From Marsupella aquatica (taxonomy: Eukaryota; Plantae; Marchantiophyta): a stretch of DNA of 64,000 nt. The notes below the pieces were generated by a model. That model made no database searches, was not told where the DNA came from, and worked only from the letters and a program-made list of their open reading frames with translations. This document shows, piece after piece, positions 2,421 through 56,926 of this stretch. The stretch lies in NCBI GenBank assembly GCA_973895155.1, contig OZ316892.1, positions 4,858,510 to 4,922,509 on the forward strand, written 5' to 3'. The translations under genes and the position numbers were made by a program. Each line of letters opens with the position of its first letter. Positions within the stretch are counted from its first letter, which is position 1.

Positions 2421-2756
2421 AAATCTCTTTAGACATACAAATTCAATACCAATCTAACATTGGTAACCATCTCATTAAAGAATATTCAATTGCATTTAAA
2501 TTGGATTCCTTGACTTCAAATGTAAGACCCTACCTAGACTGAGAAGAAAACTAGGTTAAATCAAAGAGTCCTTCACACTAAGGGCCAAACAAATTCAATG
2601 TGAAGGTGAAAATTGTTAAATACACAACATATAAGGCCGGTGTATGCACTCCAATGCTTCTTCAACTATCTAAACCAATCTCCTCTCTTCCCGCTTGTCT
2701 TAGCTTCTAATTGCACGTTGGTAATTCTGATTTCTTTAGAAATAGCCTTGCACATA

Positions 2757-5700
2757 TGTAGTATCACACTAGGGACATAAATTAACATTTAAGATCCAAA
2801 CACGGTATTCGTTCTTATGGAAGAACATGTAAGAAATGATTTTCTATTGTTTAGCACTTTTGAATGAGTAAGGTAACAAAAACACAAGGTTGAGCTTTTT
2901 ACTATGGTTGCTCAGCAAGGCATAGATTTGAATGTTTGCTTAACATTGTAAATAAGAATAACAAAATGGAATCAATTAATAAAACACAATAAAAATCTTG
3001 AGGTATGGTAAGGAAGTTAGGAAACAACCAAGGTGACTCCTCAACATCACTTCATTTGATGTGATTTAGGTGGTATATCCGTAAGAAATATTTTTGGAAA
3101 GAATTACTTTACTATGATGATTACTAAAATGTCGTCAACATGTCTCAACTTTTCCTTCCAAGGTACTTAGTGGAGACTAGTAATCAGTCACTTCTATATC
3201 CAATCGGTACTTTGTGTCACGAATAAGAGACACCATCATCATCAAATTTGAAGTCATAAGTCATTGGTAAGTAATCATTCTTAGCATCCGTGCTCAAGCA
3301 AGGCAATGTCAACAACTATGCATCAAGAACTAAAGAATATGTGAAACATCACCAACAAGGAATCTATTTCCATATATACAAAAGATTTAACATTCACAAT
3401 GATTTTACTTCAAGGGCCCAAACTTCTCATTCATTCAAACTTGAAGGAGGAAAAAATCATTTGTATTAAGTACTTATGAAATCATAGAGTTCTCTTTACA
3501 AGGTGGAGGTAACAAAACTACAATCTTGCAACTAAGCGTTCATGAAATTTCTTCACACACAAAATGACATGTGGTCCACTATCTATAGGCTAGTAGGAAT
3601 CAAAGGGAAAAGAGATAATGAAAGGACATGCACTTTCATATCTTAAGGGTCATGGGTAAAAGTAAAGTAACAAAAATACTCTACAGGAGTAGCTAAGGTT
3701 CAGTGTAATGTTCATGGAATATAAAACTAACTAAAAGATATGTCAAATGTTGACTATTGTAAAAGTGAAATTGTGGTAAAATTAATGAATATGGGTTTTG
3801 TCCTAATTTTAGTTTCTAAAATAAAAAGTTAGAAAAAGGTGAGACTTTTCTTAAGTGGTCTCTGATGTATTCATGCTAGAAAATTATGAGACTTTTTTGA
3901 GGTGTTTAAGTGCCTCAATAAAATAGACAAAAATGTTAAAAATGTTATAGAAAATGGAAACTGGAAAATTATCTAAGTGTTGGGCGCATAAGCGCATTTG
4001 CGTCTAAGCGGAAAACAACAAAACAAAAACATTTTTAACTTTCAAACCACTTGTAGGTTTGAGTTGAGATTTTCAAAGTAGGTTTTACTACGTAAGGGCT
4101 ATCTCCTGGAAAAGTATGAGACTTTTCTGACTACTTAAACTATTTAACTAAAATTGCATGGATCTATACAATTTAACTATTGTTGTAGGAGAGTTAATCG
4201 TGTTGGAGTAGTGTTGTCTGATCTGGTTGTTGAACTCTTGTGTAGGTATTCTCTTGCATAGCTTCTCGAATTACATCCATGTCTTGAGCGTGATGCCGAT
4301 AGAAAGGTAAAGACTCCCGCTGTCGTTCAAGATCCAGAACAGGAAGTAGTCTCCGATGTAGCATGGTATTTGCCTTGCTAGCTTGCATGTAAATACCGAT
4401 GAAGTCGTAATTGCAGCAAGTAGCATGGTAGTTTTGAGGAAACCTGACAGGAATGTCTCAGAGTCTCTAGCAAGTGGTAGAAGTAAAGTGACTCTAGGTA
4501 AGAGTTCACGTCACTTCAGAGTATACTCTGTTAATCGCTAAGAAGTAATGTTATCCCAGATCCTTTGTTTCTCAGTGATTGGAGTAATGAATCGTTGGAG
4601 GACAACAAGTTGTACTGGAGAAGCTTTGTGATTCATGTGGAACCTCCTCTTGGTTTCTCTTAAGAAGACAATAATGAACTCCAGGATATAAGCAGGTAGA
4701 TTCCTTAAATAGGCTAAGGCCAAATCTCCATTTTCCAGTACAATGTGTCCAACTAGGATTATGACAGCGAGAATGGGACAAAAATATTTAGCTTATGTCC
4801 AGATTTCATCCATCTCTGCTATCTCTAAGCGGGTGACTCTAACAAATGGAGTTTCAAGATGTAGAGGCATTCAACTCTCTTTTTATGATAGTCCTTCCAA
4901 AACTCTAAGATTGGAGGAGTTCTAAGACCTAAAACTCTGACAAATTCAACAAACTGTTTTAATACTCTCCTGAGGGGTTTTTGGATCAATATGCAGGGTA
5001 GGGATAAAATTGACTTGGCATGATTTATCTTGAGTGGGTGGAAGGGTGTCAGGGAAAGAAATGACAATATGTTCACTTGCAGGAGTGATCTCAGGTTCTA
5101 GAAAACTAGGAAAAAGTTGGTTTGGTTAATTTCAAGGACTGTAAGGAGAGGTAGGTGAGTGGCTAGAAGGAGGGCTGGAATAATAAATGGGAGAACTTGA
5201 TGCTGAGGTATGATAGCAAACTGCAGAATAAACTTGCTTGGTGTTGCAGCCAAACATCTTAGTGAATCTGTGGACAAGATATTCGTAGTATTCCAAGTGC
5301 TGTTCGTGGCTTGAAATACGAGATAATCTATACATAACCTCGTCTAATACCTCAATCAAATGATCAGGGTCACACTCCAACATCTTGCACATCTCATGCA
5401 CCCACAAGTCCAAAGTAATACTCAGCTGAAGGTCGGGGTAAAACTTCCATGATTTGTTGAAGATTTGTCCTCAATGGTCATAATCTCTCATCTACCGAGG
5501 ATCTCACAATGGTGTCTGTATTGTGGATATCTATCAGAGAGAGATGATCTATAGCCCCAGGTACTTCTAATTGTCCTTCAATGGATGGGTAATTTGGTGG
5601 AACAGGACTCTGGGTCAGTGAATAGATAGAAGTGGGGCTGTATGGAGTGATACAGTGGTAGGCTGGTGATGGTTGGGTAACAAAGGTAGTCCTCAATCTT

Positions 5701-7198
5701 TCTACAATGGTGAGAATTTCATTTGGATCGCAAGTTAGCATCCTGGACAAACTGTCTACTACATGCTAGTTAAAAATAGTCTTCCCATCATCAATCAATT
5801 TCTCTGGATGAATATGATCACTGGCAGGAATAACAGGAAGAGGAGCGTGGTTTGTCGCACTACTATTGGTATGGTAAGGTGTAATCTCAATATTATGATT
5901 AACATCCTCATCCATAAGTTCTGGGGCGTGTGACATAATTTCCTAGTGACCAGCTTTTGATGTTTCCTCCACTCTCAAATCATCAGGTCTTGAATCAGTC
6001 TATGAGTGTTCCACATCTAATTCCTCCAATAATGCAATCCTTTCGGCTTTCTCCTGGGGGAGCAAACAATTCCCATACCAGTAAAGCTGACTGAGGAAAA
6101 CTTGAAGGTAGGTAGGTTTACCATTCTGTACAACATTGATCTGGCTAAGAATGGTTTGTCTCAACAGCATACCCCAATTCACTTCAGTATGTCCCTTCCA
6201 AGAAGTCACAAAAGTATTCGCCAAGGATACAGCTACCATGTAGGGTCGAGCAAGATGAAAAATTGGTACTAGAAACTCGAGAATAATCTTGAACGCATGA
6301 TCAATACATTGATTAAGCTTCCATCCAGCTTTTGAATTTCTTGTCCCAGCAAACATTGAATTGGATAGAGCACTTCTCCCAGATTGTAGACCACAGCCCT
6401 CGGAAGGACAACTAAAAGCATCGGAAACAAACTCCAAGTCCTATTTCTCTCGATCCACTCGTACAGTCTCCTGAAATACTTCTAGTATCTGTGACCCATC
6501 AGCAAACTCGCGCAAGTAGGTAGGACATACAGAAGTCCACGGAATAGATAGAAGCTGCCCCAGGTGCATAACTTCTAGAGCGTCAAGCCAATAACATTGA
6601 ATCCCTCTCGAGTACAGGATATTTCACAGGGACAGCCCTAGGAATGGGAGAATCGCAACTCATCTCATCTACATCCGCCATGAAGGGTCGTAGCTATAAT
6701 TCTTGAGATTTTCTTCACCGTTGATTCGAGAGTCTAAGTCACAAAAGGTTGCGGCGCATTGGCGTGCTCGCGTATAAGCATATAAGCGCCACAACGCATA
6801 AGCATCTCTACGTATCAGCGTATGGGCATCGAGGCGTTTGGTATCAAAACAGGAAAGTAGAAGTGTTCGTCGCAAGCAGGTGGCCTAGTAAATCTCTCTC
6901 TCTCTCCTTGTCATCAACGGCTACTTTTAGTTACCCACAAGGTAGGGAGCGCATAGGCATATGAGCGCATTAGTGTCTTTGCGTTTTAGCGCATATGCTG
7001 ATTCTGCGACTCCCGATTTGACATGGCTTTAAAAGTAACTAGTTTTAGTAAACTACATGTAGGTATGTACATTAGGGTGACTTATCTACTTCTAATTCTC
7101 CTAATTAATATAAATAACCTGAGTTGAATCACTACTTATCTAAAAAAGTTGAAAATTTTCAAGTTTTCTCAATAATTTTGAATAACTATTGTATTACA
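2757..7198 (-). mobile_element. Family X long copy (X1, 4442 bp): solo-LTR-like unit with internal degraded ORF
   Basis: Minus-strand ends TGTAATAC...GTGTGATACTACA. Perfect 5-bp TSD ACATA (2752-2756 / 7199-7203). 2757-~4400 is homologous to X2-X4. Confidence 0.9.
4194..6681 (-). pseudogene. Degraded accessory ORF inside X1; N-terminal domain resembles the family A protein
   Basis: Collinear same-strand ORF pieces broken by stops and frameshifts: LGQLLSIPWTSVCPTYLREF...FVSDAFSCPSEG...KAGWKLNQC...LEFLVPIFH...VNWGMLL...GKPTYLQVFLSQLY, then repeated (R/K)M(L/F)xCx(P/T) motifs, ending MLHRRLLPVLD. Confidence 0.6.
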
Positions 7199-9261
7199 AC
7201 ATATCATACACTGTGAGGCTGGCAATAGACACAGCAGTGAGAGCCTCCATCTCCATCCCACTTAGGCCTGAAGCAGTGGCCTCTGCCCTGATCTCAACCG
7301 AATGCAGCTTGTTGTTTAGAGTGAGGGTGATATCAACCCCACTCAACAGAATACTATGACATAGAGGAATGAGAGAGCTGGTTTGTTTGGCACCGTGAAT
7401 TCCTGCAATTTTGGCTACTATGAGCACATCTCCCTTGGCTATGTTGTTGGCAGCAACCAGATTAAAGGCTTCCAAGCCCAGGAAAGCTTTACTTGAAGCA
7501 ACTGCAACTTGATTGAAATCTGTCTTGTTGACAACATTCACCATGGAGGCTTTCCCAGCAGCGTCCACATGTGAGAGAGAATTCACCTTCAAAGCATTCT
7601 TCTCAGCTTGAGCAAGAGCAAGGGGAGCTTGCTGGAGATCCTCCGAGCTGAGGTTGACCCTCGAGACCTGTTCTCCTCCTATCTATGGAGGGCTCTTTGG
7701 TCGAGTGCCAAACACAAGCTCCAGTTCCTGGAAAATCCCGTAAGTCCCAATAATTAAAATTAGATGATGCCTTAAGGACATTGTCCTAGTCTGTCAGCCA
7801 CAGACCCTGGTAATAAAATGAATGGTAGGGCCAAGGGAATGAGCGAATTTATTTCTATACATCAACGTACCAATGACCAACTGGACACTGAAATGTGCAG
7901 GGAAAGACAGGGTAGTGGATGAGAGTCAAGAGGACCCAATACTCAGAGAAAATGAATCTCCAATGGTTGATGCCACCCTAAATTTGAACATGGGACATCC
8001 AGTCCAAAAACGACACATCCAGACCATGACCATCACACAGTATCAAAAACCAATGAATAGGGAGACTGCTAATGTAATGTTACAGTCCAAAAGATTTCTG
8101 AGACATAGAGGAGAGCATGCTCAAGGGTTGAGCCGTCTATGCAAAAGAGTGCACAATTCTGCAACCTAAATGCTGGCTATCTATAAACCCCTAAAATTGA
8201 CTCACTTGGTTGAAATCTTTGACACACTCATCGTCAACTTCTTTGTTGCTGAACAATCTCTTAACACAGTCACCTAAAATTGGATAGCCATCACAGATGC
8301 CTAAGGACGCGTGCGGCACAACCAGAAAATTTGGCTTGATCCCTAGCAGAGCTCTCCTGATGCCAAACATACCTTCTCCTCCTCCTCCGCTCGGTACATC
8401 AAGTGAACCCACAACTTGACATCCACCTCTATCTATAGCTCAACAAGGACTTCTCATTGCATAACTAGGATTACATGGCAAAACGCCTTGTCAGCCTTCT
8501 CTGCGTCTGTCCATTCATTTACCTCCGCTATGCCTTGATCCAATTCACTTTTGCATATTCTTCACACTTCGTCTAGCCTTGTACATATTGCAACCTCCAT
8601 GTGTGTGTCCGCCTATCTATGTTCATCACTTTGTGTCAATTTGGCAGCTTCTTTGTTTATCACCAACGCCTCACCAACACTTCAGTACTCATCGGTAACA
8701 GAGCTTAGTTAAAAGATTACATTGTTTGTGTAATCAAACTGGGTTGGGAGTGTTGGATGGGAGCCAAGAAACTAACCTTGGCAATAAAACAATTTTTTTT
8801 TCTTGAAAGTCCTGGCAAGCTTTTTGTACTCGGGAGCTAGCTTCTTCCAATGACCACACCTGCAATAGAATTGAAAACCTTGTCACACTAAGAGGAAGTA
8901 ACACGGCAAGAGGAAATTTCCAGATTGATTCGGCTTTGCTCATCACTTCCCCTTGAAATAATGTGATAACACGTCGCTTGAGCTTCGTCACTCTGAACTC
9001 CTGAATCAACTCTTCAAAGAAGTGAGACTAAAGTACACTCCCTAGTGTCCTACTTTTTTGTTGACTGAAAGCGAAATTAAATTGAAGTATGGCAAATTGT
9101 AACTAGGCAGTGGACGCAGCTCACACACCAACAACAAATTTCACTGACGTTGTGCGACTTGGCTCCCCACCCCAAACAAAGAGAAAAACAAAAGGGGAAA
9201 ATTGGCTCCTGCCGCGATAGATCACGCCCCTAAAGTTCGACAACGGTCCACATTCTCCATA

Positions 9262-9713: not shown

Positions 9714-11404
9714 AGTAAACAAAACAGAGTTCTAGAAAAGGTACAACAGCAATGGGGCACATTGTTCAGAGTCTAACTGGTACACATAAATTGCACAATA
9801 CCCATAAACTGAATGGTAGAGAGTATACACACCCGTCTTGACTAGCTCAAACATATTATCAGACACAGCTTGCCTGATAAAATGGTACCTGACGTCAATG
9901 TGCTTCACTCTGCTGTCCATCACCTGGTTCATAGCAAGGTGGAGCGCACTCTGACTATCATAATGGAGCTTCACATTCCCCTGTGGCAATCCCATCTCAG
10001 TGATTAGTCTATCCAACAACCAAATCATTTCCTTTGCTGCTTCCGTTGCTGCAACATACTCCACTTCTATAGTAGGCTGAGCAATACACTTCTGCAAAGT
10101 AGACCTCCAACTTATGCATCCAACACCAAGTGTGAACACATAACCTGTTGTTGACCTTCTCTGATCCAGATCCTGTGCATATGGTCAGCATCTACATAGC
10201 CCATCAATGATCTAGCATTATCAGCATGTGCATCAAACAATAGACCATGATCCACAGTACCCTTCAAGTACCGAATAATCCACTTCACTGCTTCTCAGTG
10301 TACCTTCCCTGGATTCGACATAAACCTGCTCACCTTGCCCATAGCCATGGCAAGATCAGGTCTAGTGTAAGTCATCAAATACAGAGACTTCCCACTTGTA
10401 ATACAGTAATTATAAATTTTGAACTTTTTCTAAGTCAAAGATGCAGTATAGTTACCTTTTGTAGAAATTTAGATCAACTGAACACTTTGTCTAATGCTAT
10501 GCTTCATCGGAGGCTATTGTCTATATTGGACAAGGATCGACAATATAAATCCTTGCTCTTTGCATGCTACCAAGAAGGAATATTGGACATCATTGGAGAA
10601 GCAATGCAGACTAGAAGATTCAAGAATTGGACTCCAAAACACTTATTCAGCAAGAATGAGCTCTATATGTCTTTATGAAGATCAACCGATCTCTGCAAAT
10701 TTAGTTAAATAGTTAAAGTAGATAGAAAAGTCTCATACTTTTTCAAGAGGTAGTCCTTATGTAGTAGAACCTACCTTGAACATATCGGCTTAAACCGACA
10801 TTTAGTTTAGAAGTTATTAGCATTTTAATTTTGCTGTAGCGTAAAAGCGCAACGGCATTTCCGACACTTAGAAAATTTTCCAGAACAGAATATTTTATAT
10901 CGACAACATTTTTCATCGATTTTATTGAGGCATTTAGACACCTCAAAAAAGTCTAAAATTTTGCCAGCATGTAGCATGTATGTAAATCTTCCACCTACAA
11001 ATGTTTCACTCTATTATAAATTTTATATTATAAATTAAAATTCAGACAAAGTTGATATTTGTTAGTTTTACCACAAAGGTGCAAAGACACTTTTACTCCA
11101 ATTTACACTAGGGATGATTTTTTATTAGATTTTGATTCTAGGAACATTCTAGTGAACCTTGAGTACTCTTTTAACATATTTTGATACTTTTTACTTTAGT
11201 TCATGTCCTTTCATTATTTCTTTTTCCTTTGTTTCTTGCTACCCTATATGTAGTAGAGTTTCTGTCAGTTTTTGTGTGAAGGAATTTCATGAGCGCTTAG
11301 TTGCAAGATTGCAACTTTGTTACCTCCACCTTGTAAAGAGAACTCCATTCCTTATGAGTACTTAATACAAATAATTTATTCCCCCTTCAAGTCTGAATGG
11401 ATGA

Positions 11405-14400
11405 ACTACAAGGCTCTGCATTAGCAAAGGAGACAGAAATTCAAGTCTTAAGAGACAATCTTTGGGCTCTGAAGCTGGCAATAATTAGTGACTATGCAGA
11501 CTCAGATCTTAGAGACTATGCAACGGCGGAGGAAGCAATGCGGAAGGCCGAGCACGAAGAGGCTGAACACGGCAGGAGGCTCTCAAGACTACGATGGTTA
11601 GGGCAAGGGGACGAGCCGTCTAAGTTCTATTTTGCCAACATTAAAGCAAAAAGGAACCGAGAAACCATGGATTCATTGCTCTTGGAGGACGGGACAGTGA
11701 TAACACAAGCCACTAGGATACTGGAAGAGGTAGAACAGACCTTTGCAGATCTCTACAAAGCGGATGAAGAGGTTGCACGTTGCGACTCTTTGGTTGTTAG
11801 GGAGGCCAAACGCGTCCTCCTTATGAATACCCATAAAGCCCTATCAGCCGACGAGATCCACCGGCTAGAAACCCCCGAATTTAGAAGAAATTCGATCCAC
11901 TCTATGGCTTCTACCACTCGACAAAGTCCCCGGGCCGGATGGACTGACGGCGGAGGTGTTTCGCCACTGCTGGGATTTTGTTAAGGAGGATATGCTCGAC
12001 ATGATCCTTGAATTGTGGCGTACAGGGGCTCTTACTTCGCACATCAAGGAAGGAATCATCAAGCTTATTCCCAAGAAACCAGACAAACTTCGTCTCAAAG
12101 ACTGGAGACCGCTCACAATGCTCAATACTGTCTACAAGCTGATTGCAAAAATTCTTGCGCTGCGGCTTAAACCACTTCTACGGAAGCTCATCAGCCCACA
12201 GCAAACGGGATTTATCCCTGGCCGACACATACTAGAGAACATCTCTGTTGCGTGGTTGACTGTGGACTGGGTCACCCATTGAAAACAGGAGTCGCTATTC
12301 CTGCAACTAGATTTCGAGAAAGCCTTCGATCGTGTCTCTCACTCGTACATCTGGGAGACCATGCACATACTCGGCTTGGGACCCCACTTCATTAGTCTTG
12401 TCAGATCACTCATTAGCAATGCCAGTTCTCAAATTCACGTAAATAGGTGCTTTTCTAAGGATATTCTGATGCGGAGAGGAGTACGCCAGGGCTGCCCGCT
12501 CTCTCCTTTGCTTTTTGTTATTGCTACTCAGCCTTTGATGGACCATCTTGACACTGCAATGTTGACCGGGAAATTCAAGGGGGTGCAGATTTCTGAAAAT
12601 CTTATCATCAGCTACAGGCTCTTTGCTGATGACGTGGGTCTATTCATTCCTGCATCCGAAGAAGACTTCAAAGGAGTAATGGAGGCGATTTTGTGCTACG
12701 AACTGGCTTCAGGAGCTAAGTTGAACCTCCTCAAGTCTACTGTCATCCCGTTGGCTTTGGAAAACCCTCCTGGGTGGTTAATTAGCATGGGGTGCAAAAT
12801 CAGCAAACGGGGAGAGGTCCAAAGATATCTTGGAGCGCCTATGGGGTGGGGTCTGAACGATGCACAACTGCACACCTTCTGCCTAGACAAGATTGGTAAC
12901 AGACTCTCATCTTGGGCTAATCGGTTCCTCTCTTTCACTGGCCGGACTATACTTGTAAAACACGTTCTGCAGGCTATTCCCATCTACCATATGATGTTTT
13001 TGCACTCTTCGAATAGTCTGGCTATCAAATTAGTAGCGCTTTGCAGAGACTTTCTTTGGGGTTACAATGCTAACGGTGGCAAAAAGATTCCTCTTGTAGC
13101 CTGGAAAATGCTCTCAACACCTAAGCTAGAAGGCGGGATCGGTATGAAGGACTTTCGAGCTCATTCCGATGCTTTGCTTTGCCAATGGTTCAATAGGGCC
13201 CTTGATTGGCCTTCCTCTGATTGGGCTAGATTGCTTGCCGCAAACCTATGTCTGGCCAAATGGCGCAATGCTAAAACCATTCGACGGAATAAGTACTCCT
13301 TCACAGACAAGCTGCTGCTCTGACATTACCCAAGGAATTTTAGTGGTCTGAGCTACACGGGCAGTATTTGGCAAGCTTGGGAGGTGCTACGTACTCACCT
13401 CATTTTTTCACCTAGAAACACTGCAGTTGCCACATGGTGGCGTGTGGAAGACGTAATACGTTGTATTGAAGGAATACAGGACCTTGGGGAGGACACAATT
13501 TGGGCTATCAACAGAACCTGCGGCAGGATTGGAATCAGAGATATTGCAGACCTGAGGGAGCCCTCTCCAGCTACCACCACCATGTACACTAACAAACTGG
13601 ATCGGGTGAGAGGTCTGGACCACAGAACTAGACTCTTGACTCTAGAATTCTTGGGCAAAGTGGGACGGCGGACGACATCCACACTGGACGGGCGTGCCGT
13701 AGCTGGGCAGTGGAGGTGGTCGGATAAACCTGAAACACTGAGGAAATTCACTTTACCAAATGCCCGAACTTACCAGTTGCTCCGACCCAAAGGGTCTGAT
13801 TACACAAGGCTTAACCGAATATGGCAAACAACACTCTCGGAGTTGGAATGGAACAAAGTATGGCTGTCGATGTGGACCTCAGACCTACCATTGAAATCCT
13901 GCACATTTGTCTGGAGAATTTTGGCTCAAGGCCTGTTCACCGGTACCCGGGCTCTCAGAATTGGGAAGAGTGACGGATTGTGCCAGATCTGCCCCTCAGA
14001 AATGGAATCCATCCTGCATCTCTTTTTTAAATGTCAATTTGCACATAGGTGCTGGAATCTAGTGTTGCAGTCTTTCCCTGGCAGTATAATTTGGCCTCCA
14101 GTAGAAGTCCTGCAACTGATTGACCAATTTCAAGGCCCCAGGTTCACACACACTGTGGTAGCATTTGTAGTATACCAGGTTCTGTGGGCTCTATGGACCG
14201 CCAAGAATGAGCATCTTTTTAATCCCCGGTCTAGTAGATCCTTCAATATGAATCTAGTGCTTTCAGAAATGGAGGACCAAATATGGGGACTTTGCGAGTC
14301 CTTTGGCCCCAGCCGCAAGCACTCGCGACTGCTTCTGGCCAAGGCCGCTGTGGCACTGGAGAGACAGCGGTGGATGGGCCGAAGGGATGCCTATGTAACC

Positions 14401-14409
14401 TGGCAATAG
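11405..14409 (+). pseudogene. LINE ORF2 (reverse transcriptase plus C-terminal zinc-binding region), disrupted
   Basis: KSPGPDG, WRPLTMLNTVYKLIAK, QTGFIPGR, LDFEKAFDRV, GVRQGCPLSPLLF, FADD and CQIC...ESILHLFFKC. Frameshift near 11875; stops at 12280 and 13321. Confidence 0.92.
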
Positions 14410-14713
14410 CATTAGCACTCACTTCCTACTTGTCTCTCAGCACGCCTGTATTATTGCTAGTAGACTACTGCCTGCCCCTAGTTAGGGTTACCTTAGGGCA
14501 TGCCTGCCAGTATCTCCGCTCTGGTTATAGGATAATGCTCTTTTAGTCTCAGAATTAGAATTTTGCCTGATGTACTATGGCATTGATGAGTGAGGCTGCT
14601 GGTACTCTTGCTTCTTGGGCCCTTGGCATCTCTTGTACTGGCTGTTTTGGCCTCCCTTCCCGTGGGGTTTCGCGGGTTATTCTATTAAATTGCCATAAAA
14701 CGGTGGAAAAAAA
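11405..14713 (+). mobile_element. 5'-truncated L1-type LINE
   Basis: 16-bp TSD AAGTCTGAATGGATGA (11389-11404 / 14714-14729), short poly(A) from 14707, ORF2 motifs present. Confidence 0.92.
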
Positions 14714-15841
14714 AAGTCTGAATGGATGAGAAGTTTGGACCCTTGAAGTGAAATCATTGTGAATGTTAAATCTTTGGTATATGTGGAAATAGATTCCTTG
14801 TTGGTGATGTTTCACATATTCCTTAGTTCTTGATGCATAGTTTTTGGCGTAACATTGTTTGTGCAAAGATTGTTACTCACCAATTATTTATGACTTCAAA
14901 TTTGATGATGATAGTGTCTCGTGACACAAAGTACCGATTGGATACAGAAGTGATTGATTACTAGTCTCCACTATGTACCTTGGAAGGAAAAATAGAGATA
15001 TATTGACGGCGTTTTAGTGATCACATCCTAGTATAGTAATCCTTTCCAAAAATATTTCTTATGGATATACCACCTAAATCATATCAAATGAAGTTATGTT
15101 GAGGAGTCACCTTGGTTGTTTCCTAACTCCCTCATCATACCTTAAGATTTTCATTGTATTTTGTTAATTCACTACAACACTATCGGCCGGTTTTGCGAAG
15201 ACAATCTCATCACAACTAACAAGCCCCTGATTTTCATCATTCTGGCCATTGCAAACATACGCGCATCGCACCACCTTCGCACTTTGTGAACCTAATAACA
15301 TCGCACGTAGACCATCGCAACGGCATCGCAACACCATGGCAAACTGCGAAGCTGAGAGGTTCGCAAGATTCAATACTTGTGCAATCCATTATACGTCGCA
15401 TAAGGTTTGCAAACATATACGCACATGTCCCGCGCGGGCGTCGATATTTGAGAAGAATTTACCATCGCATCATATTTGCGAAAGATACTGGTTCAATTAT
15501 TTTCATGGGGATTGTATGACAAAGAGCGATACCGGTGATTTCAAAAGTTTGTGAACGGTTTCGATTAGGAAAGTGCGATCCTAGAAGTATCACAAAAACT
15601 CGACATATTTGGATGTGAAGTTCTGAAGTGAATTGACTCAAAAAGTGCGACGCCTTGGGGTTTATATTGTGCGATGGGAATGAGTTCTTAAAGGGTTTGC
15701 AAAATTATGATCATAGAGGATTCAATACATTATTTGCGAGGGGTTTTCCTTGGGACCCAATGTGGAAGGCAAAATTGTTGTTTTATAAAATGGAAAAGCA
15801 TGAACAAAATGATAGGGCTTCAAAGAACCCTATACATGGAC

Positions 15842-15854
15842 AAGAGGGGGGAAA
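15842..15854 (+). promoter_or_regulatory. Putative polypurine tract upstream of family A short copy C
   Basis: AAGAGGGGGGAAA lies 2 nt before TATGATGC, the inferred start of copy C. Confidence 0.5.
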
Positions 15855-15856
15855 TA

Positions 15857-17033
15857 TATGATGCTAGGTCCGCCCTTCTAAACCTATGCTGCCTCCTCCT
15901 ACCCTAAGCTCCGGCATGACAAGTCACTCTCATGCATGTATCTCTACAAAATAACTAGAATGGGCTCTTGCGGCTCCTCTTGGTTGGCTTCTTGGTTGGC
16001 TTCTTGCCCTTATCCTTCCCAGGATCCTGTTGGTGACGGGTGCGTGATGGCCGTCGGCGCTCCTTCTCTTGCTGCTCCTCTGCCTCCTCTCTTGCAAAGT
16101 GTAATTGGACCTCCTCGGGGAGGATCGCCGCCCAGCCTTTCCAGGTGTCATCTCTCATTGGAATGGCGTTGATGGGGTCGACCTCCTCCTCCTCGGCTTC
16201 TCTCTGCCTCCTGCTCTGCTGTTCGGCTGGTTTCTTTGGTGCCGCCGACCTCATTCTTTTTGCCGGGGTGGCCTCATCGTTGTTAATTCCCTTCCTCTTC
16301 ATCTCGGCTGCCGTGGATGTCTCTCCGAGCATGGTTGCCTTTGTCCACCCCTCCGTGCTACCCTTCAACTCCCAGTGTATGTTGTTGCAGCGTTTGATGG
16401 CTTTGCGGATGCCGACGACTCTGTCTTCGCAAAACAGAAGGTCGTCGAGTTGATTGGTAGTAGGAGTCCACAAGAATTTGGCCTTGATAAGTTCTCCTCC
16501 TAAGAAGGCAGCTTTTTGCAGCTCCCACAATCGAGCGAGCTCCTGCCGTTCTCGAGCTGCTCTCTCCGATTCTTCATCCTCGTAAGTCCCAATGTACTCA
16601 GTTGCCCGCTTGAATAGGCATCCCCAAAAATGTGTCGCTTGATTGACGTTGCTCATACCCTTATCGAGTTGATAGTCGGTATCTGCTCCCCCCCTGAGTG
16701 CTTGCTTAAGCAGCTGATAGTAGTTGGCCGCCCGTAGTCGTCTGCCCAGTTCGTGCCTGCAAATGAGCCACAACTCTTCGCGAGCGGTCCTTACCCCTCT
16801 CCTCCTCGGCGTTTCTCTCCCATTGGTGACCCCTAGCCGCCGGCATTTATCGTGCCCTAACCCTAATCGTGTTCTCTCCCCTGGCGTCCTTACTTCCGGC
16901 CTCGGCTCGGGTTCCATAGTCACCCTTAATTGTTTATATTTTCTTATTTTTGTAACTATACTAAGGTGTTTCTAGGGTACACTTCCCTTTTCCCCTGTAA
17001 ACCGGGCCTAGTGATTCCTGGCTAGGCATCACA
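15857..17033 (-). mobile_element. Family A short copy (C, ~1.18 kb)
   Basis: Ends CTAGGCATCACA at 17033, the reverse complement of the family terminus TGTGATGCCTAG. 16100-17033 is homologous to the first ~0.95 kb of copies A/B. The left end is inferred from register-matched similarity to the other terminus of A/B. Strand given is the ORF strand. Confidence 0.75.
15955..16917 (-). CDS. Uninterrupted ~320-aa ORF: N-terminal part of the family A protein plus a basic tail
   Basis: MEPEPRPEVR...QATHFWGCLFKRATEYI...DDTWKGWAAILPEEVQLHFAREE aligns to the A/B ORFs, then a different tail ending KKPTKKPTKRSRKSPF*. Confidence 0.6.
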   Translation of the reverse strand: MEPEPRPEVRTPGERTRLGLGHDKCRRLGVTNGRETPRRRGVRTAREELWLICRHELGRRLRAANYYQLLKQALRGGADTDYQLDKGMSNVNQATHFWGCLFKRATEYIGTYEDEESERAARERQELARLWELQKAAFLGGELIKAKFLWTPTTNQLDDLLFCEDRVVGIRKAIKRCNNIHWELKGSTEGWTKATMLGETSTAAEMKRKGINNDEATPAKRMRSAAPKKPAEQQSRRQREAEEEEVDPINAIPMRDDTWKGWAAILPEEVQLHFAREEAEEQQEKERRRPSRTRHQQDPGKDKGKKPTKKPTKRSRKSPF

Positions 17034-19310
17034 GAAATATATGAAGAAGAGATACCACAGATGGAGGTATTGGCAGCAGAGGTGGTATGCAAGCTGGAGA
17101 AGGCCCTCCCTCCTTCCTTCTTTGATTGTCAGGTGCATCTTCTCGTTCATCTTGTGAGGGAGGTTGCCGTTGCCGGTCCGGTGCATTGTAGGTGGATGTA
17201 TTGGCTGGAAAGGTATATGGCCGTGTTAAAGGCTTATGTACGGAACCGTGCACGAGTGGAGGTGTGGAATGACACTTTGGAGCTATGGAGTGAAAATGGT
17301 AAAATTTAAAACTTTTTGGCATTAATTGAAGCTACTTCAAAGCATATTACTACCCCTTAACCTATTTCAAGCTTCAAAAGGAAGTTTTGGAGGAAAGTGA
17401 AGAACTTGAAGTTCCTGACGGAAAAATCGCTTTGGGAAACATGAGGAGAAAATCGTTTTGGCAGGAAAATCGGTTTGAAGTTGCTACAACAACTTTGACA
17501 GACGATTGCGGATCAACCCAATGTTGTTTTAAGGATATTTTTAGTGTGTTGGAAAGATATTTCCAAGAGCTACAAGGAGAGTTTAGTTTGAACCTAAAAG
17601 ACATACTTCAAAATGTCTCAAATTGATTCTTCGAGATATTCTGGCACTTGTTTCTTAAACCATTTTATATCTGTTTTACACCTCTTGAGCTTTTCCAATA
17701 GTTAGTTAGAGTAGGATATAGAGAGACATAGTTTATTACACCCTTAGGAATTAGATTTAAAGAGTCTTAAACTTATCTTACCTTTTAGGACCTTAAGTTT
17801 AGATGAGAAAAGGTTTGTAGATTTTTAAACCTTTTGGCATCTTTGAGGGAGCCTACAGTGGACTCCCAAGACAATTTTTTGTTGTCTTTTCCTTGGAAGT
17901 TAATCTTTGACCAGATTTGGGTCTTTCTCTCAAGCCAGTTTTGGGCATAGGAGGGAAGATTGAACCAGAGGAATTGTACCACACATTTGCACTTGAATCA
18001 TAACATTTATCACAAATTCATGGATGAATGTCATAGAGTCATGGATTTATAAAGAAAAGCTTTGGATTCTAGGGAAAAGAGAATTGTAGTGAATCATTCA
18101 ATGTAAAACCAATCTCTGTTGAGTATATGGAAGTTGATGAGGAATGAAAATCAAGATTACCTATTGATAAGAAGTAATCACTTATAAATTTGATGATAGA
18201 TTGAAATCCATTGAAATGTCGTTGTAGAATCGTTTGTACCAGAAAGATAGTAAAGAAATTGCTTTGAGGTTTCAAAGTGTTTAAACACCTACATAATTCG
18301 TTTCACTTATTCCTTACGGGATTGAACCTTGGTAATTAAGGACAAATTACATACATTTGAGTTATTATCACTTACCACAGGAGGGGAGCATGGCAACTGG
18401 ATACTTGGCAGCTGAGAGTATGTTTTATTGTAGTAACATCTTAGCTACCATTGATCCTAGTTGTCCATGCACTTGGATGGAAGAGAGGGAAGTGGAGGAG
18501 GACCGTTTAATAGGTGCAAAAAAACACGCTTACTAATCGCAGTGGAGTTGACACAGGTTAGTACTTTCATGTTGAGTAACAGCAATGTGATGGAAGATTG
18601 GAGAGAGTTTTATGAGGATGCAAAGAGGGAGTTGTCGCCCAAGGATCTTTCCAAAGTTCCTTGAGTATATGAAGGAGAAAGTACTTCAGTTGGATGCTAT
18701 GGTGGCCCAAGGTGAGAATGTATCACATTTTCCAGATATGACTCCTGAGGTTCGAACAATTGTTCATGGTCCTTTAAGACTTGTTCAGACCAGAACAACA
18801 ATGTGGACACAAGGGAGGCATTTCAGGATTTCTGACCTTGATGAGAAGAGGGGAAGAACTTTTGATTGTGGAGTTCAAGGGCAGTTCATGCAAGATTCAC
18901 AAAGTAGCCGTCATGACACTAATGTGATCAGAGATGTGGTGCCTCACTATGGGAAGATTGAGGAGATCTTGATCATATCCTATGATGCCGATTCCAAATT
19001 TGAATAGTATGTCTTCAAGTGTAAGTGGTTCAAAATTCACCTGGTTGGTGATAATCGCACGGTACTTCTTGATGAGTGTGGGTTTACTCGACTGAAGACA
19101 TCAGCAACTAGCTTTCAACCATCTCATTGGCAAACATCTGAACCATTTACATTCCCAAGTCACCTTGAGCAGTGTTTCTATATTCCGTACCCACCAGACC
19201 CAGAGTGGTCAGTTGTTATACCGTATGTGCCAAGGTCTCGTTCCATTATCTCGGAAAAACCTGACGTTATTATTGTGTCAAATGGAGGAGAGGATGAGGA
19301 CCAGGTTTGA
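17034..19310 (+). pseudogene. CACTA-1 TnpD-type transposase, C-terminal half, disrupted
   Basis: LEKALPPSFFDCQVHLLVHLVREVAVAGPVHCRWMYWLERYMAVLKAYVRNRARVE, probable intron ~17261-18380, then EGSMATGY...YGKIEEIL...FKCKWF...EPFTFPSHLEQCFY. Stops and frameshifts present. Confidence 0.85.
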
Positions 19311-21289
19311 TGCACTAGTAGTAAAACTTGTTGTGGGCCCAAAATTTGACCCTAAACTAACTATCATGGTTTTATTTATATTAACATATTAATTTTCTTC
19401 TTTTGTTTTACAAACACTTAATTGGACTTTGAAATTTTATCTCACTGTTATATATGCAACCCTAGCCGTTTCCAAAGCTATCCTCATGCATGCCACCTTT
19501 TTGAAAACCCTAACTGTAACCTAAACACATGCATTCTCCGTCTTGTAAAGAAACTCTCTCAAACATTTCCATTCTACAAACTTTTCAAACAACTCTCTTT
19601 GCAAAACATTTTCAAGCTTGTCAAGAAGCAACTTTTGAACACTTTGTGAATAACACACCATCGGTAATTGTGATGCCAATGGGTTCTCAACTTTGCGAAT
19701 CAACTGGCTTCGCTAACTTGCGACTATTTATACTTCACAATATTGTGCGAAGCTAATAGGTTCACAAGATATATTTGAGTACATTATTATCGCTAAATTA
19801 TGAAACAAAAGAGATCCAAATGCAGTCGCGATGGTCGCGGATCCACAAATACTTTGCGAGACTAATAGTATCTGAAAGAGTTGCGAATTCAATCCGATCT
19901 CAAACAAATTACGAGGTATTTAGCTTCGCAACACTATGTTGCGAATCTTTGAGCATGGTTTATTGTGATGCGTGTTTGATCACAAAATATCTGAAGTCGA
20001 TGATATCGCAAGACCATCCCGGCGTAAAAAAAAAGCGTCGCAAAAGGGGCCAATATGTAGTAGTGATTGATTCTATTTTGTTATTTTATTTACAATGTTA
20101 AGCAAACATTCAAATCTATGACTTGCTGAGTAATCATAGTAAAAGGCTCAACTTTATGTTTTTGTTACCTTACTCATTCAAAAGTGCTAAACAATAGAAA
20201 ATCATTCCTTACATTTTCTTCCATGGGAATGAATACCGAGTTTTGGATCTTAAATATTAATTTATGTCCCTGGTGTGATACTACACCATTGCCTTTTCAT
20301 AAGAAACCTTTGACATCAGCCCCTTCTCTATCTCATCTGTAGGACATAAAGCTGATGACAACCTGAAGTGTCACTAGTAGAAAATGGGGCCTTTTATGAC
20401 TATGACACATATGACTTATGTGCTCAAATGACAAAATATGTAAATGACATAACATAAATGACATTGAAATGACTGTCCAAAATGACGGGGTGCAAAAAAT
20501 GACTAATACTTGCAATAGTGTCATTTAAACCAATGAGCCAAATGACTTTGACTGCTATAATGACAACAATCATGAGTTGTAGTCATTTTGGACAGTCTTT
20601 GTGAATGACACAATTAACAAAAACTCTGTCATATCAGTGTTTCACATATGGGAAGTCATTTCAGACGACGGTGACTAATGACTAATAAATCAAATATGCA
20701 AATATCAGTGTTTAAAAATGTTAGTAGTCATTTAAACCAAAAGTGATAAATGACATGATAAACAACATATGACTATTTTGAGGTTTATGGTTTAGTATAT
20801 GTTTTAGGGTTTAGGGTATGATTAGTCATCCAAAATGTATGGTAGTATATATAAAGACTAGTGGCACTCACATATTAGATTTGAAATACATTTAGAGACC
20901 TAACAAGCCTTCTTTTGTTGTGAGTCTCATCATTAAATTGATGTACAACTTAAAGGCTTGATAATCTCTAATAAGTATGTACATTTAAATATATACTTGC
21001 ACCCATTCATTACATCTTTCCTATATATGCCAAGGACTCCTGAAGTGTTTACATTCCTTAAGCTGTATTCACATTTCACATGTTTGAGTATATATGGGGG
21101 CATGCAAGGTTGCCAAATAACACTCTCTAGCATAGGTCTAGGGTTTAAGGTTTAGAATTTAGGTACTACATGCCTATATTTGCTCATGTCATTTTTTTCA
21201 ATATATTATTCATTTTATTTGCAAAGGATTCCCAATCATTTTTACTCTCACTCAACTTTCTAGTCATTTGACAAGTGCCGCTAGATGTC

Positions 21290-31331: not shown

Positions 31332-34300
31332 TGTGATGCCTAGACAGGAATCACTCGGCCGGTTAAGTGGGTAAAGCAGGAAGGCACCCTAGGAACACCT
31401 TAGTATAGTGACAAAACAAGGAAAATATAAACAATTAGGGGCAACCATGGAACCCGGGCAGAGGCCGGAGGTAAGGCTGAGGGTGAAAACCCGATTAGGG
31501 TTAGGGCGCGTTAAGCATCGGCGGCTAGGAAGGATCAACGGGAAGAAGGACCGGCAGAGGAGAGGGGTAAGAAGCGCTTGCAGGAGATGGTGGCTCATTT
31601 GCGAGCACGAACTAGGCAGACGACTACGGGAGGCCAACTACTGTCAGCTGCTTAGGCAAGCACTCGGGGAGAGAGTAGATACCGACGATCAACCTAAGGA
31701 GGGTATGAGCAACGTCAATCAAGCGGCACATTTCTGGGGATGCCTGTTCGAACGGGCAACTGAGTACATCAAGACTTACGAGGACGAGGAGTCAGAAAGG
31801 GCAGCTCGAGAACGGCAGGAGCTCGCTCGATTGTGGGAGCTGCAGAAGACGGCTTTCTTAGGAGGCGAACTCATCAAGAACGAGTTCCTGTGGACGCCTA
31901 CTTCCAATCAACTCGACGATCTTCTGTTTTGCAAAGACAGCGTCGTCGGCATCTGAGAGGCCATCAAGAACTGCAACGACATACACTGGGAATTAAAGGG
32001 TAGCACGGAAAGGTGGACCCGGGCAACGGTGCTAGGAGAAACCTCCACGGCAACAGAGATGAAGAGGAAGGGAGCCGTCAACGATGAAGCCACCCCGGCA
32101 AAAAGAACGAGGTCGGCGGCACCAAAGAAGCCAGCCGAGCAGCAGAGCAGGAGGCAGGGAGAAGCCGAAGAGGAGGAGGTCGATCCCATCAAGGCCATTC
32201 CAACCAGGGATGACACCTGGAAGGGCTGGGCGGCAACCCTACCGGTGGAGGTGCAACTACATTTTGCATGGGAGGAGGATGCATGCTTTACGGCCATGCA
32301 GACCAAGAAGTACCAAGGCTTCATGGCCGGATCCGGCTTGGAGGCCTTTGTAAGATTACCATGGCTGAAGCCGGAGGTACCGGAGTCAGACCTATTAGAA
32401 TTCGTGGGGTCATGGGAACCCGAGACCAATTGCACGAGGATATATGGGAAGGATTTCTATCTTACTCCCAAGGTGATTGCCGAAGTGTTTGGCTTGCCGA
32501 TGGGCAATAAGACCAAAGTTGATACCAGGAAGACCTTGCCTGACAAGGAGTTCCGGTCGTTCCCCGGGCCATCAACGAAGAATGGCTTCTTCCGGAACAC
32601 CTGCACCAACCCGCACATAGGAGAGATGATCGACTTCTTGCGGGTGACCATGCATTGTAACTTGCCGAGGGCAGAGATCGGCAAGGCACAGGTCTATCTG
32701 GCAGAAAGGCCAGACCCAAGCCGGGACTACAACGGGTACCTCCTCAACCAATTGAAGAAGATCTTAAAGGAGGAGCAGCAGGTAATCGGCATGGGGAGCG
32801 TGTCGCGGCTTGGCTATCACATGCCGCTGTTGTGCCGGTATGCCAGAGGTCAGACTTTTGCCCCGGTACTTCCCCTGCAGGTAAGGGCACCCGAGGAAGC
32901 TCCAACGCCGAGGCCGTTGGCTGAGAAGCCTCAACCACCTGTTAGTCCTACGATCGAGCAGGTGTTTAGGCCCAGGAAGGAAGACTTGCCGATGCAGCAA
33001 CCAGGCATGCAGAGTCTGCTGAAACTACTGGAGAAAGAAAAGAGATCGGCATCGGCAAAAACAACGGCAACGGCAACAATGCAGGACACTACTACAGAGG
33101 TAGGCCTACACCGGCTCACAAGAGAAAACCCCTTTGCTGGAGACAAGGAGAGAATCAGGCCAGAATCCAAGCCAGGTGTTCGAATGTACGTGGGAACCTC
33201 AAGCTCCGAATCTGAGGCAGAATTGCCTGAAGCTCCTACCGAGGAAGAGGAGAGGGAGAAGCCGGAAATCCAAGAGGTAGAGGAGGCAGTGGAGGACTGC
33301 AGCCATGATAATTCCGGCTATGGGTCGGACCATCACGTTCCAGGAGTAAGGACCTGTGGCCGGTTTGTCCCCACACTTCCAAGGGTAGTGCGAGGGGACC
33401 CCAACCAGCAGAGTAGCCCTGAGTCTCCCCCACCAGATGTTGCTCCCCCGAGCTTCGACGGCATAAAACAGACGGTGCAGGAATTTCAGGAGCGAATCAA
33501 GCAGGAGGAAGAGGCCGCCCTGGCTAAGGAAAAGGATTTACCAGGAGGAGATTGGCCGGAGGACATCAGGCGGCTAGCCGAAAAAGGAAGCAAACCTCTA
33601 GCCACGATTGAAGAGATCCGCAGGACGGCTTGGGAGCAGAGGCCACGATGGGCGATGCCGATCACTTCTACTTACTCCACCTACGCTAAGAATAGAGCCA
33701 TGGAGTATGGTGAGATGTGTGGGGAACTTGCGCTCGGCATCTTTGGAGAGGAGTTGGAGGTAGGACCCTTTTTCCATAGGGAGCAGTTGGAGAAGCACCA
33801 ATTAGAAGAAGCGGTGGCTTTAGAGAGAAGCAAGAAGGACGAGGTCATTCGGCGGCTTAGGAGGATGGAAGCCGAGATTGAAGATCTAAGGGCGGCCAAG
33901 AAAGCCCAAGATGAACTGCGGATTAAACGACATGAGCTGAACATCATGCAGGGGCAGTTGGACGCCGCGCAGGCTGATAATCAGAATATCAAGGATAAAC
34001 TGACTCAGACGCAGGAAGAGTTGGCCGACACGATCAAAGAAAGGGAAAAGTGGAAGCAAGAGCTGAAGAATACAGAGGAGGCCCACATAACAGCCAACAG
34101 CCGGGCCATGGCGGAGACCCAAAGAAAGGAATGGGCGTTGAAAGGGGAGCTCGAGAAAATCCGCGGAGCCCTTGAGCAGAAGGAGGTCGAGTTAGGGAAA
34201 TCCTATCAAGGGATTATGGCGCTGCAGCAGGAGCTTGCGTCCCTGACGGCCAGCTTCAAGGCCGACCTAAGGGAGAAGGACGAGATGCTCGAACAGACTT

Positions 34301-56879: not shown

Positions 56880-56883
<4 letters not shown>

Positions 56884-56924: not shown

Positions 56925-56926
<2 letters not shown>

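What the first reader, a model, noticed from the sequence alone, without database searches (positions are those of the whole stretch)
6000..6610. A second family (X) carries an apparently homologous protein domain inside its 4.4-kb TSD-flanked unit
Eye alignment. X1: LEVMHLGQLLSIPWTSVCPTYLREFADG...FVSDAFSCPSEG...MFAGTRNSKAGWKLNQCIDHAFKIILEFLVPIFHLARP...VNWGMLLRQTI...GKPTYLQVFLSQLY. Family A (32323-32845): MAGSGLEAFVRLPWLKPEVPESDLLEFVGS...VIAEVFGLPMG...SFPGPSTKNGFFRNTCTNPHIGEMIDFLRVTMHCNLP...RDYNGYLLNQL...GSVSRLGYHMPLLCRY. The order PW / EF / FxxPxxG / KxG / C / FL / H..P is the same. The EF...IAEVFGLP pattern recalls plant retroelement accessory ORFs (Transposase_32/PMD-like), from memory only. 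Two families with different termini and no evident DNA similarity sharing this layout suggests a recurring system rather than one accidental capture. Plant-mobile-domain proteins are linked to silencing control, so a chromatin or anti-silencing role is a hypothesis.
Basis: partly seen in the sequence, partly recalled or inferred. Interest (0 to 1): 0.85.

Follow-up and report, generated by a model that had tools for sequence, protein, structure and literature searches.

The report
Shared protein domain in two retroelements
Two jumping-gene families in this plant-like genome carry the same unnamed protein domain, each inside a unit that is likely a retrotransposon's long terminal repeat, a part that normally holds no gene.

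Summary
The minus-strand frame 6003-6623 is a decayed but real coding sequence. It lies in a 4,442-bp insertion (2757-7198) with TG...CA ends and a 5-bp duplication (TATGT) that splits a MoaC exon; contigs of public runs show the empty site.

Pairwise similarity to the family-A domain (about 32254-32916) is at noise level. Profiles settle it. A 19-sequence family-A profile matches the X-type pair (X1 plus a 46%-identical metagenome relative, L001) at HHalign probability 90-93%, E 3.5e-7 to 1.5e-6, with 0 of 150 shuffles as high. A profile HMM built without the window's own copy finds only L001 (E 5.9e-6) and X1 (E 3.9e-4) among 797 six-frame ORFs, apart from the A copies.

The PMD/Transposase_32 label is not supported: no Pfam match for X1, L001 or any of the 19 family members. 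In L001 the ORF follows a retroelement integrase directly.

Families A and X share end motifs (TGTRAT...ACYACA), 5-bp duplications and ORF orientation. They are most likely solo LTRs of two related Ty3/gypsy-like families with the accessory gene in U3. No full-length element was seen, and function is unknown.

The parts
2757..7198 (-). X1: long form of family X, 4442 bp, 5'-TGTAAT...ACTACA-3', likely a solo LTR
   Evidence: Ends aligned with three other X copies. Length and ends checked. Empty-site joint 2751->7199 in 3 of 4 runs.
7199..7203 (-). Target-site duplication TATGT, upstream copy
2752..2756 (-). Target-site duplication TATGT, downstream copy
6003..6623 (-). X1 domain ORF (207 codons, one in-frame TAG at 6441-6443), homologous to the family-A domain
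   Evidence: HHalign with X1 alone: 86.3%, E 4.8e-6. hmmsearch E 3.9e-4 for 6003-6440. 46% identity over 155 aa to the L001 ORF. Variant places by codon position 10/7/23, p 0.004.
5478..5999 (-). Same frame continuing with further stops (acidic, then Pro/Ser-rich): decayed rest of the ORF
   Evidence: ORFs 5766-5942 and 5478-5765 lie in the frame of 6000-6440
4396..7050 (-). About 2.65 kb present in X1 but missing from the short X copies; it carries the ORF
   Evidence: the short copies differ in their deletion edges, and no ends or TSD of its own were seen. Diverged contigs bridge 4173-4549 and cover 4967-6706.
2757..4395 (-). 3' part of X shared with all short copies (74-78% identity)
7051..7198 (-). 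5' terminal segment of X shared with the short copies
7199..7682 (-). MoaC-family exon cut by the X1 insertion
   Evidence: Pfam MoaC 1.4e-37; frame continues at 2751
2666..2751 (-). Rest of the MoaC exon, to its stop codon
31332..35981 (+). A1: family A unit, 4650 bp, 5'-TGTGAT...ACCACA-3', TSD AAGAG, inserted in a CACTA TNP2 gene
   Evidence: Flanking Transpos_assoc and Transposase_21 2.5e-71. No internal terminal repeats.
31957..35067 (+). A1 ORF, 1037 aa. The same frame runs from 31393, broken by one TGA at 31954-31956.
   Evidence: Codon-position differences A1 vs A2: 65/73/151.
32254..32916 (+). Family-A copy of the shared domain (query of the library search)
43191..47876 (+). A2: second family A unit (91% to A1), TSD CACAT, ORF with stops
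48959..55378 (-). A3: older, truncated family A copy holding two short X insertions
52407..54164 (+). X2: short X copy (1758 bp), TSD GTGAG
49266..50973 (+). X3: short X copy (1708 bp), TSD TTCAT
10397..20285 (+). X4/5: short X copy broken by nested insertions (a LINE and others), flanks CCACT/CCATT

Best explanation
The decayed ORF at 6003-6623 (minus strand) and the family-A ORF share a homologous domain of an unnamed family, and both lie in TG...CA units with 5-bp target duplications that are likely solo LTRs of two related Ty3/gypsy-like retrotransposon families, so the gene would sit in the U3 part of the LTR.

Shown:
- The homology.
- The insertion boundaries and the empty site.
- Coding constraint on both ORFs.
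- In a metagenome relative (L001), the X-type ORF begins about 180 nt after the stop of a retroelement integrase.

Inferred:
- The units are LTRs. No paired copy with gag-pol between was seen.
- The short 1.7-kb X copies are LTR variants that lost the ORF by internal deletion.
- The protein would be made from the 3' part of the element's RNA, which contains the 3' LTR's U3, as a 3' accessory (eORF) product.

Function is not known. The A protein has basic NLS-like runs and a long coiled coil, and I saw no hydrophobic stretch by eye; none of this was computed. My guess is a nuclear, oligomerising accessory factor acting on the element's own chromatin, transcription or integration, not an envelope protein.
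For: Homology:
- HHalign A7 vs A5: 90.2%, E 1.5e-6.
- With the profile trimmed to the domain 92.4%, without the window's own A1 93.0%, X1 alone 86.3%, L001 alone 86.5%; 0 of 150 shuffles as high.
- hmmsearch: L001 5.9e-6, X1 3.9e-4, next hit E 1.6, among 797 ORFs.
- L001, fetched only by likeness to X1, aligns to A1 in the same register: BLASTP E 0.019; 9 of 5000 shuffles as high with BLOSUM45 and 50 of 5000 with BLOSUM62.

Real coding sequence:
- X variant places fall 10/7/23 by codon position, p 0.004.
- A1 vs A2 differences fall 65/73/151, p 7e-11, against 15/13/15 in the non-coding tail.

LTR-like units:
- TG...CA ends with short inverted ends and 5-bp TSDs: exact in 5 of the 6 copies whose two flanks were read (X1, X2, X3, A1, A2), 4 of 5 bases in X4/5.
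- Empty site for X1.
- Both families end TGTRAT...ACYACA, with the ORF in the same orientation.

Retroelement link:
- L001 has an integrase core (rve 1.9e-5; PFV/HTLV integrases 9e-7 to 1e-4), a stop at 826, a purine run at 846-857, then the ORF from 1005.

ORF piece integral to X:
- X3 keeps more of it at both edges than X2.
- Diverged contigs bridge its junction with the common X part.

Background: plant non-chromovirus Ty3/gypsy elements have eORFs and LTRs up to about 5 kb (PMC6317226, passages).
Against: - No full-length element is in the window: no LTR-element gag, RT or integrase near any A or X copy and no terminal direct repeats inside A1. The LTR reading therefore rests on ends and TSDs only.
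- L001 stops before any LTR boundary can be placed, and it starts inside the integrase, so RT upstream was not seen.
- An ORF filling about 80% of a 4.65-kb LTR is unusual.
- The pairwise similarity is at noise level.
- With shallow profiles HHalign gave only 0.5% and 2.2%.
- A-L001 identities are not enriched at columns conserved between X1 and L001: 15 of 33 against 40 of 115, p 0.18.
- Both AlphaFold models, made from single sequences, were unusable (pLDDT 33 and 38), so the folds were not compared.
- Only one X-type relative was found.
Confidence: 0.6

Rival explanations
1. The domain is a remote member of the plant mobile domain / Transposase_28 / Transposase_32 / Athila ORF-1 group of retrotransposon accessory proteins, and acts in silencing control as PMD proteins do. 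This is compatible with the best explanation; it adds a family label and a function.
For: The ESM-Atlas feature search with the A domain gave clusters carrying PF20167 Transposase_32 (score 0.88) and PF03078 ATHILA (0.87) at ranks 3 and 5. [quoted passage not shown] The layout of a domain followed by a coiled coil recalls such proteins (recalled, not tested).
Against: There is no Pfam match for A1, X1 or L001's ORF at E<=1 to 10. None of the 19 family members matches any of these four models at E<=10. The Atlas scores are under the tool's 0.9 lead line, and X1 gave no usable hit. No profile-profile comparison with Pfam and no fold comparison could be run.
Confidence: 0.2
2. The units are not LTRs. 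They would be whole non-autonomous elements moved by a gypsy-type integrase acting as a DNA transposase (Ginger-like), or another class with short inverted ends, and the ORF would be their own gene.
For: All A and X copies in the window stand alone, and none has gag-pol beside it. The ends are short imperfect inverted repeats. L001 shows only an integrase upstream, with no RT visible.
Against: TG...CA ends with 5-bp TSDs are the LTR signature. Solo LTRs are common. Short X copies that lack the ORF but keep both ends fit LTR variants. Ginger-type elements are not known to me from plants (recalled).
Confidence: 0.12
3. The ORF piece in X1 (about 4396-7050) is a secondary insertion or a separate capture, so families A and X gained the domain independently.
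For: Three of the four X copies in the window lack the piece. Summed contig depth over the piece is lower than over the common X part, but the tool warns that this depth cannot rank parts.
Against: The piece shows no TSD, TIR or TG...CA ends of its own. X3 and X2 have different deletion edges, and X3 keeps about 30 nt more at the 3' edge and about 25 nt more at the 5' edge. Diverged contigs (10-16% other letters) bridge the 4400 junction. A relative has the ORF in the native place after the integrase. The A and X ends are alike.
Confidence: 0.08
4. The similarity is chance: the two ORFs are unrelated.
For: All pairwise tests are at noise level. The shallow profiles gave HHalign 0.5% and 2.2%. 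The conservation-enrichment test was not significant.
Against: The deeper profile gives 90-93% probability with 0 of 150 shuffles as high, also without the window's own A1. HMMER separates X1 and L001 cleanly from 797 ORFs.
Confidence: 0.05

Closest known systems
Extra ORFs (eORF-3'F) of plant non-chromovirus Ty3/gypsy elements (Ogre/Tat/Athila), Neumann et al. 2019, PMC6317226 (passages read)
   Same: A long sense ORF outside gag-pol. In L001 it lies directly downstream of the integrase. The elements have very long LTRs and 5-bp TSDs, and the protein has no known function.
   Different: Those eORFs are described in the internal region. Here the ORF lies inside the TSD-flanked, LTR-like unit itself. 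The domain matches none of the Pfam families reported for them. The named relatives are from a liverwort (Calypogeia fissa).
Plant mobile domain (PF10536), Transposase_28 (PF04195), Transposase_32 (PF20167), Athila ORF-1 (PF03078)
   Same: Accessory-protein domains of plant retrotransposons. There is an Atlas feature-level lead for the A domain.
   Different: No HMMER match for any of 19 family members, or for X1 or L001. Membership is not shown.
MMTV sag and lentiviral nef: coding sequence in the U3 of a retroviral LTR
   Same: If the units are LTRs, an accessory gene sits in U3, is duplicated with the LTR, and would be read from the 3' end of the genomic RNA or a subgenomic RNA.
   Different: No sequence relation. 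The host is a plant-like genome. The ORF is far larger (about 1000-1200 codons in family A). Expression was not tested.
Solo LTRs
   Same: TG...CA ends, short inverted termini, 5-bp TSD, and an empty site shown for X1.
   Different: Solo LTRs are normally non-coding. These hold an ORF that was under purifying selection.

Membership tests
Plant mobile domain (PF10536) | Match to the Pfam model at or near its gathering score | tested here: not met
   No match at E<=1 to 10 for X1, the A1 domain, the A1 ORF or the L001 ORF. 0 of 19 family members match at E<=10.
Transposase_32 (PF20167) | Match to the Pfam model | tested here: not met
   Same calls as above. The only hint is an Atlas feature score of 0.88 for the A domain, under the tool's lead line. 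A remote relation is not excluded.
Transposase_28 (PF04195) / Athila ORF-1 (PF03078) | Match to the Pfam model | tested here: not met
   Atlas gave 0.87 for an ATHILA-bearing cluster.
PMD-group domains (all four) | Shared fold or profile-profile match | not testable with these tools
   There is no Pfam HMM-HMM search here.
eORF of plant LTR retrotransposons (Neumann 2019) | ORF of at least 250 codons outside the polyprotein | tested here: met
   A1 has 1037 codons. L001 has at least 282 codons, open at the contig end. X1 is decayed: about 380 codons in one frame with several in-frame stops, including those at 6441-6443, 6000-6002 and 5766-5768.
eORF of plant LTR retrotransposons (Neumann 2019) | Lies up- or downstream of gag-pol in a full-length element | tested here: inconclusive
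   L001: downstream of an integrase and in sense, but the contig lacks RT and LTRs. No full-length A or X element is in the window.
LTR (solo) | 5'-TG...CA-3' ends with short inverted termini | tested here: met
   X: TGTAAT...ACTACA. A: TGTGAT...ACCACA.
LTR (solo) | 4-6 bp target-site duplication; empty site | tested here: met
   TATGT, GTGAG, TTCAT, AAGAG, CACAT; CCACT/CCATT for X4/5. Joint 2751->7199 in 3 of 4 runs.
LTR (solo) | The same unit occurs as a direct pair around PBS, gag-pol and PPT | not testable with these tools
   No genome is held and there is none in the window. The contig pieces are short.

The most novel reading that the evidence does not exclude
A lineage of bryophyte Ty3/gypsy-like retrotransposons keeps a conserved accessory gene wholly inside the U3 of its LTRs. 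The gene belongs to no named family and encodes a domain followed by a long coiled coil with NLS-like runs. Every element would then carry two copies and every solo LTR would leave one behind: a plant counterpart of the retroviral U3 genes (sag, nef). The domain defines a new family that may act in the nucleus on the element's own silencing or targeting.
Probability: 0.45. Interest if true: 0.72.

Novelty: new variant of a known kind. Interest (0 to 1): 0.6.

Why it matters
Extra ORFs of plant LTR retrotransposons are common but very diverse, and their functions are unknown. Neumann et al. 2019 could not tell whether they evolve fast or were gained many times (passages).

Here one such domain is shown to be shared by two families with no DNA similarity, to have been under purifying selection in both, and to have relatives in a liverwort genome. 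That argues for an old, functional accessory gene.

If the units are LTRs, the gene lies in U3. I found that layout described for retroviruses but not for plant elements, by phrase searches only. Solo LTRs could then be carriers of protein genes.

The new profile (A7 plus A5) gives a handle for annotating these ORFs in bryophyte genomes.

Tried and rejected
Searches that found nothing:
- Word-seeded protein searches with X1, with the A domain inside the whole ORF, and with the A domain alone.
- Atlas search with X1: no usable hit.
- PDB sequence and profile searches for both domains. The only hit was one chance match at E 0.78.
- Viral contig scans with X1, the A domain and A5, and a prokaryote genome scan with A5.
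- Earlier notes of this scan by place and by sequence.

Structure and expression:
- AlphaFold on single sequences gave pLDDT 33.2 (A domain) and 38.1 (X1). The models are unusable, so no fold search was run.
- No RNA holder was listed among the sequencing runs, so expression is open.

False leads:
- The six-frame scan's top hit at 56480-57550 is a low-complexity K/E-rich frame, not a third family.
- One PDB search of L001 was made in a wrong single frame and is void. It was repeated correctly.
- Three hits of the library search were dropped as spurious before A7 was built: P0005 (bacterial Ig domains) and P0017 and P0021 (HA domains).

Readings rejected:
- The long inverted repeat 3427-4164 / 10688-11404 is not a TIR pair. 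It is two X copies in opposite orientation.
- X1 is not an 'LTR - internal region - LTR' element. X homology resumes at one point (X3 position 155), not at X position 1.

Literature phrase searches for ORFs inside plant or liverwort LTRs gave nothing relevant. These are phrase searches of an open-access library, not proof of absence.

Full report
**What is at the coordinates.**
On the minus strand, 6623-6003 is one reading frame of 207 codons with a single in-frame TAG at 6441-6443. The same frame runs on, with more stops, to 5478. The family-A peptide lies in a 1037-aa ORF, 31957-35067. That ORF has a 96%-identical copy with stops at 44116-44778, and an older copy (72-76% identical) split by an insertion at 54379-54164 and 52406-51948. 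No whole genome is held for this window.

**The X unit.**
Four copies of family X share ends 5'-TGTAAT...ACTACA-3' and 5-bp flanking duplications:
- X1, 2757-7198, minus strand, TATGT.
- X2, 52407-54164, GTGAG.
- X3, 49266-50973, TTCAT.
- X4/5, 10397-20285, broken by nested insertions, CCACT/CCATT.

X1 is 4442 bp; the others are about 1.7 kb.

X1 sits in the last coding exon of a MoaC-family gene (Pfam MoaC 1.4e-37). With X1 and one TSD copy removed, the frame runs on from 7199 to 2751 and ends at a stop at 2666-2668. Contigs of 3 of 4 public runs laid on the region join 2751 to 7199 and skip 4447 bases. That is the empty site. The '4.4-kb TSD-flanked unit' is therefore real.

**Is the ORF piece a secondary insertion?**
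X1 equals a short X plus about 2.65 kb (about 4396-7050) placed at one point, about 150 nt from the 5' end.
- I found no TSD, inverted ends or TG...CA ends for this piece.
- X3 keeps about 30 nt more of it at the 3' edge than X2, and about 25 nt more at the 5' edge. The short copies therefore look like internal deletions with different edges.
- Contigs with 10-16% other letters bridge the 4400 junction (4173-4549) and cover 4967-5755 and 5732-6706. Other diverged genomic copies thus have the same layout.

**Is the X1 frame a real gene?**
Of 118 variant places in 5990-6640, the tool listed the 40 best supported. By codon position in this frame they fall 10/7/23 (chi-square p 0.0044). Most contigs laid there differ from X1 at the middle base of the in-frame stop, so that stop is private to this copy.

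A metagenome contig, L001 (1851 nt), encodes a 46%-identical relative over 155 aa (tblastx E 4e-47) in an intact ORF of at least 282 aa.

The family-A ORF was also constrained. A1 and A2 differ 65/73/151 by codon position (p 7e-11), against 15/13/15 in the unit's tail. A1's frame starts at 31393, about 61 nt from the unit's 5' end. It is broken by one TGA at 31954-31956 where A2 reads a sense codon.

**Homology, the tests that failed.**
- BLASTP of X1 against A gave 18.1 bits, E 0.075 for a single comparison.
- tblastn of the A ORF against the window at E<=10, and tblastx of the two units, did not list the pair.
- With BLOSUM62, 628 of 2000 shuffles scored as high; with BLOSUM45, 22 of 2000 did.
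- Among 1770 six-frame windows, X1's ranked 5th, behind a low-complexity frame.
- HHalign with window-only profiles gave 0.5%.
- With L001 added it gave 2.2%, E 0.022, and 2 of 300 shuffles were as high.
- A-L001 identities were not enriched at columns conserved between X1 and L001 (p 0.18).
- AlphaFold on single sequences failed (pLDDT 33 and 38).

With BLOSUM45, 9 of 5000 shuffles scored as high; with BLOSUM62, 50 of 5000 did. This was suggestive only.

**Homology, the test that decided.**
An exhaustive phmmer search of 1.84 billion representatives with the A1 domain gave 21 hits at E<=1e-3. Three were dropped as spurious. The other 18 plus A1 form alignment A7.
- HHalign of A7 against the X-type pair A5: probability 90.2%, E 1.5e-6, 142 columns, same register.
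- Trimmed to the domain: 92.4%. Without the window's own A1: 93.0%. X1 alone: 86.3%. L001 alone: 86.5%. Reversed: 0.2%.
- 0 of 150 column shuffles reached the score. The largest was 22.7, against 50.8 observed.
- A HMMER profile built without A1, run over all 797 six-frame ORFs of at least 40 aa of the window and L001, found the A copies, then L001 (5.9e-6) and X1 (3.9e-4). Nothing else scored better than E 1.6.

The shared core reads roughly F-x-G-x(3-4)-K-[NH]-G-[FYW]-x(3)-[QT]-C-x-D ... [IL]-[ED]-[FL]-L. I take the homology as shown.

**What family is it?**
None of the 19 members of A7, nor X1 or L001's ORF, matches any Pfam model of the PMD, Transposase_28, Transposase_32 or Athila ORF-1 kind, even at E<=10. 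No solved structure matches.

The only hint towards that group is a feature-level Atlas score for the A domain: 0.88 for a Transposase_32 cluster and 0.87 for an ATHILA cluster, below the tool's lead line. X1 gave nothing.

Three named relatives are 'unnamed protein product' of the liverwort Calypogeia fissa. Four others are called only 'hypothetical protein', and the rest carry no name. It is an unnamed family.

**What kind of element?**
Family A units end 5'-TGTGAT...ACCACA-3' with TSDs AAGAG (A1, 31332-35981) and CACAT (A2, 43191-47876). The two families therefore share TGTRAT...ACYACA ends, 5-bp TSDs, and an ORF in the same orientation starting near the 5' end. Common descent is the simple reading.

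Neither unit has internal terminal repeats. No LTR-element gag, RT or integrase lies near any copy. The window's other coding pieces are a CACTA TNP2 gene that A1 interrupts, a LINE, and a PHD ORF.

In L001 the X-type ORF follows a retroelement integrase (rve 1.9e-5; PFV and HTLV integrase cores 9e-7 to 1e-4). The integrase stop is at 826, a purine run lies at 846-857, and the ORF runs from 1005. That is the place of a 3' extra ORF of Ty3/gypsy elements. Such eORFs, LTRs up to about 5 kb and 4-5-bp TSDs are described for plant non-chromoviruses (PMC6317226, passages).

X1's 5' end falls, relative to L001, between the integrase stop and the ORF, where a PPT/LTR boundary would lie.

**Most likely mechanism (inferred).**
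- A and X are solo LTRs of two related families.
- The accessory gene lies in U3, so it is copied with the LTR and left behind in solo LTRs.
- It would be read from the 3' part of the element's RNA.
- The short X copies are LTRs that lost it.

The A protein has basic NLS-like runs. Its coiled-coil stretch gave a weak ATG16 match. I saw no hydrophobic segment by eye in the translation. I guess a nuclear, oligomerising factor rather than an envelope protein; this is a guess from sequence reading.

**What stays open.**
Open points are whether paired units with gag-pol exist, the fold, any link to PMD-type domains, expression (no RNA holder was listed), and function.

Earlier notes of this scan describe genes inside LTRs in other genomes. 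They are unchecked and are not evidence here.

Noticed in passing
window 7199-7682 and 2666-2751 (minus): The last coding exon of a MoaC-family (molybdenum cofactor) gene is split by the X1 insertion. Contigs of 3 of 4 runs also hold the uninterrupted form, so there is an intact allele or paralogue.
   Followed up: partly
window 30328-31371 and 35961-37857 (+): A CACTA/En-Spm TNP2-type transposase gene is interrupted by the A1 insertion. Its pieces are Transpos_assoc (E 9.9e-5, below the Pfam cut-off), Transposase_21 (2.5e-71) and DUF4218 (1.6e-35). A second TNP2 piece (DUF4218, DUF4216) lies at 17001-19307 beside an A fragment at 16083-17033.
   Followed up: partly
window 11869-14406 (+): A LINE-type element (RVT_1 6.7e-18, zf-RVT 2.9e-13) is nested in the X4/5 copy. 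The X sequence overlaps by a few tens of bases on its two sides.
   Followed up: no
window 21217-24834: A tandem array with a period of about 400 bp (80-87% between units) in the self-comparison.
   Followed up: no
window 1-2000: Very AT-rich stretch (16% G+C) against 38-55% elsewhere in the window.
   Followed up: no
window 28128-28955 (+): ORF with a PHD_NSD zinc-finger match (2.6e-9); its context was not examined.
   Followed up: no
window 31954-31956: A1 has an in-frame TGA where A2 reads a sense codon. The ancestral family-A ORF was therefore about 1225 codons and began about 61-115 nt from the unit's 5' end.
   Followed up: yes
L001 182-186: The integrase reading frame of the metagenome contig shifts by one base between ORF 1-186 and ORF 182-826. 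This is either a decayed copy or an assembly error.
   Followed up: no
window 56480-57550 (minus): A K/E-rich low-complexity frame beside an (AG)n-like run scores above X1 in uncorrected Smith-Waterman scans against the A domain. It is a composition artefact.
   Followed up: yes
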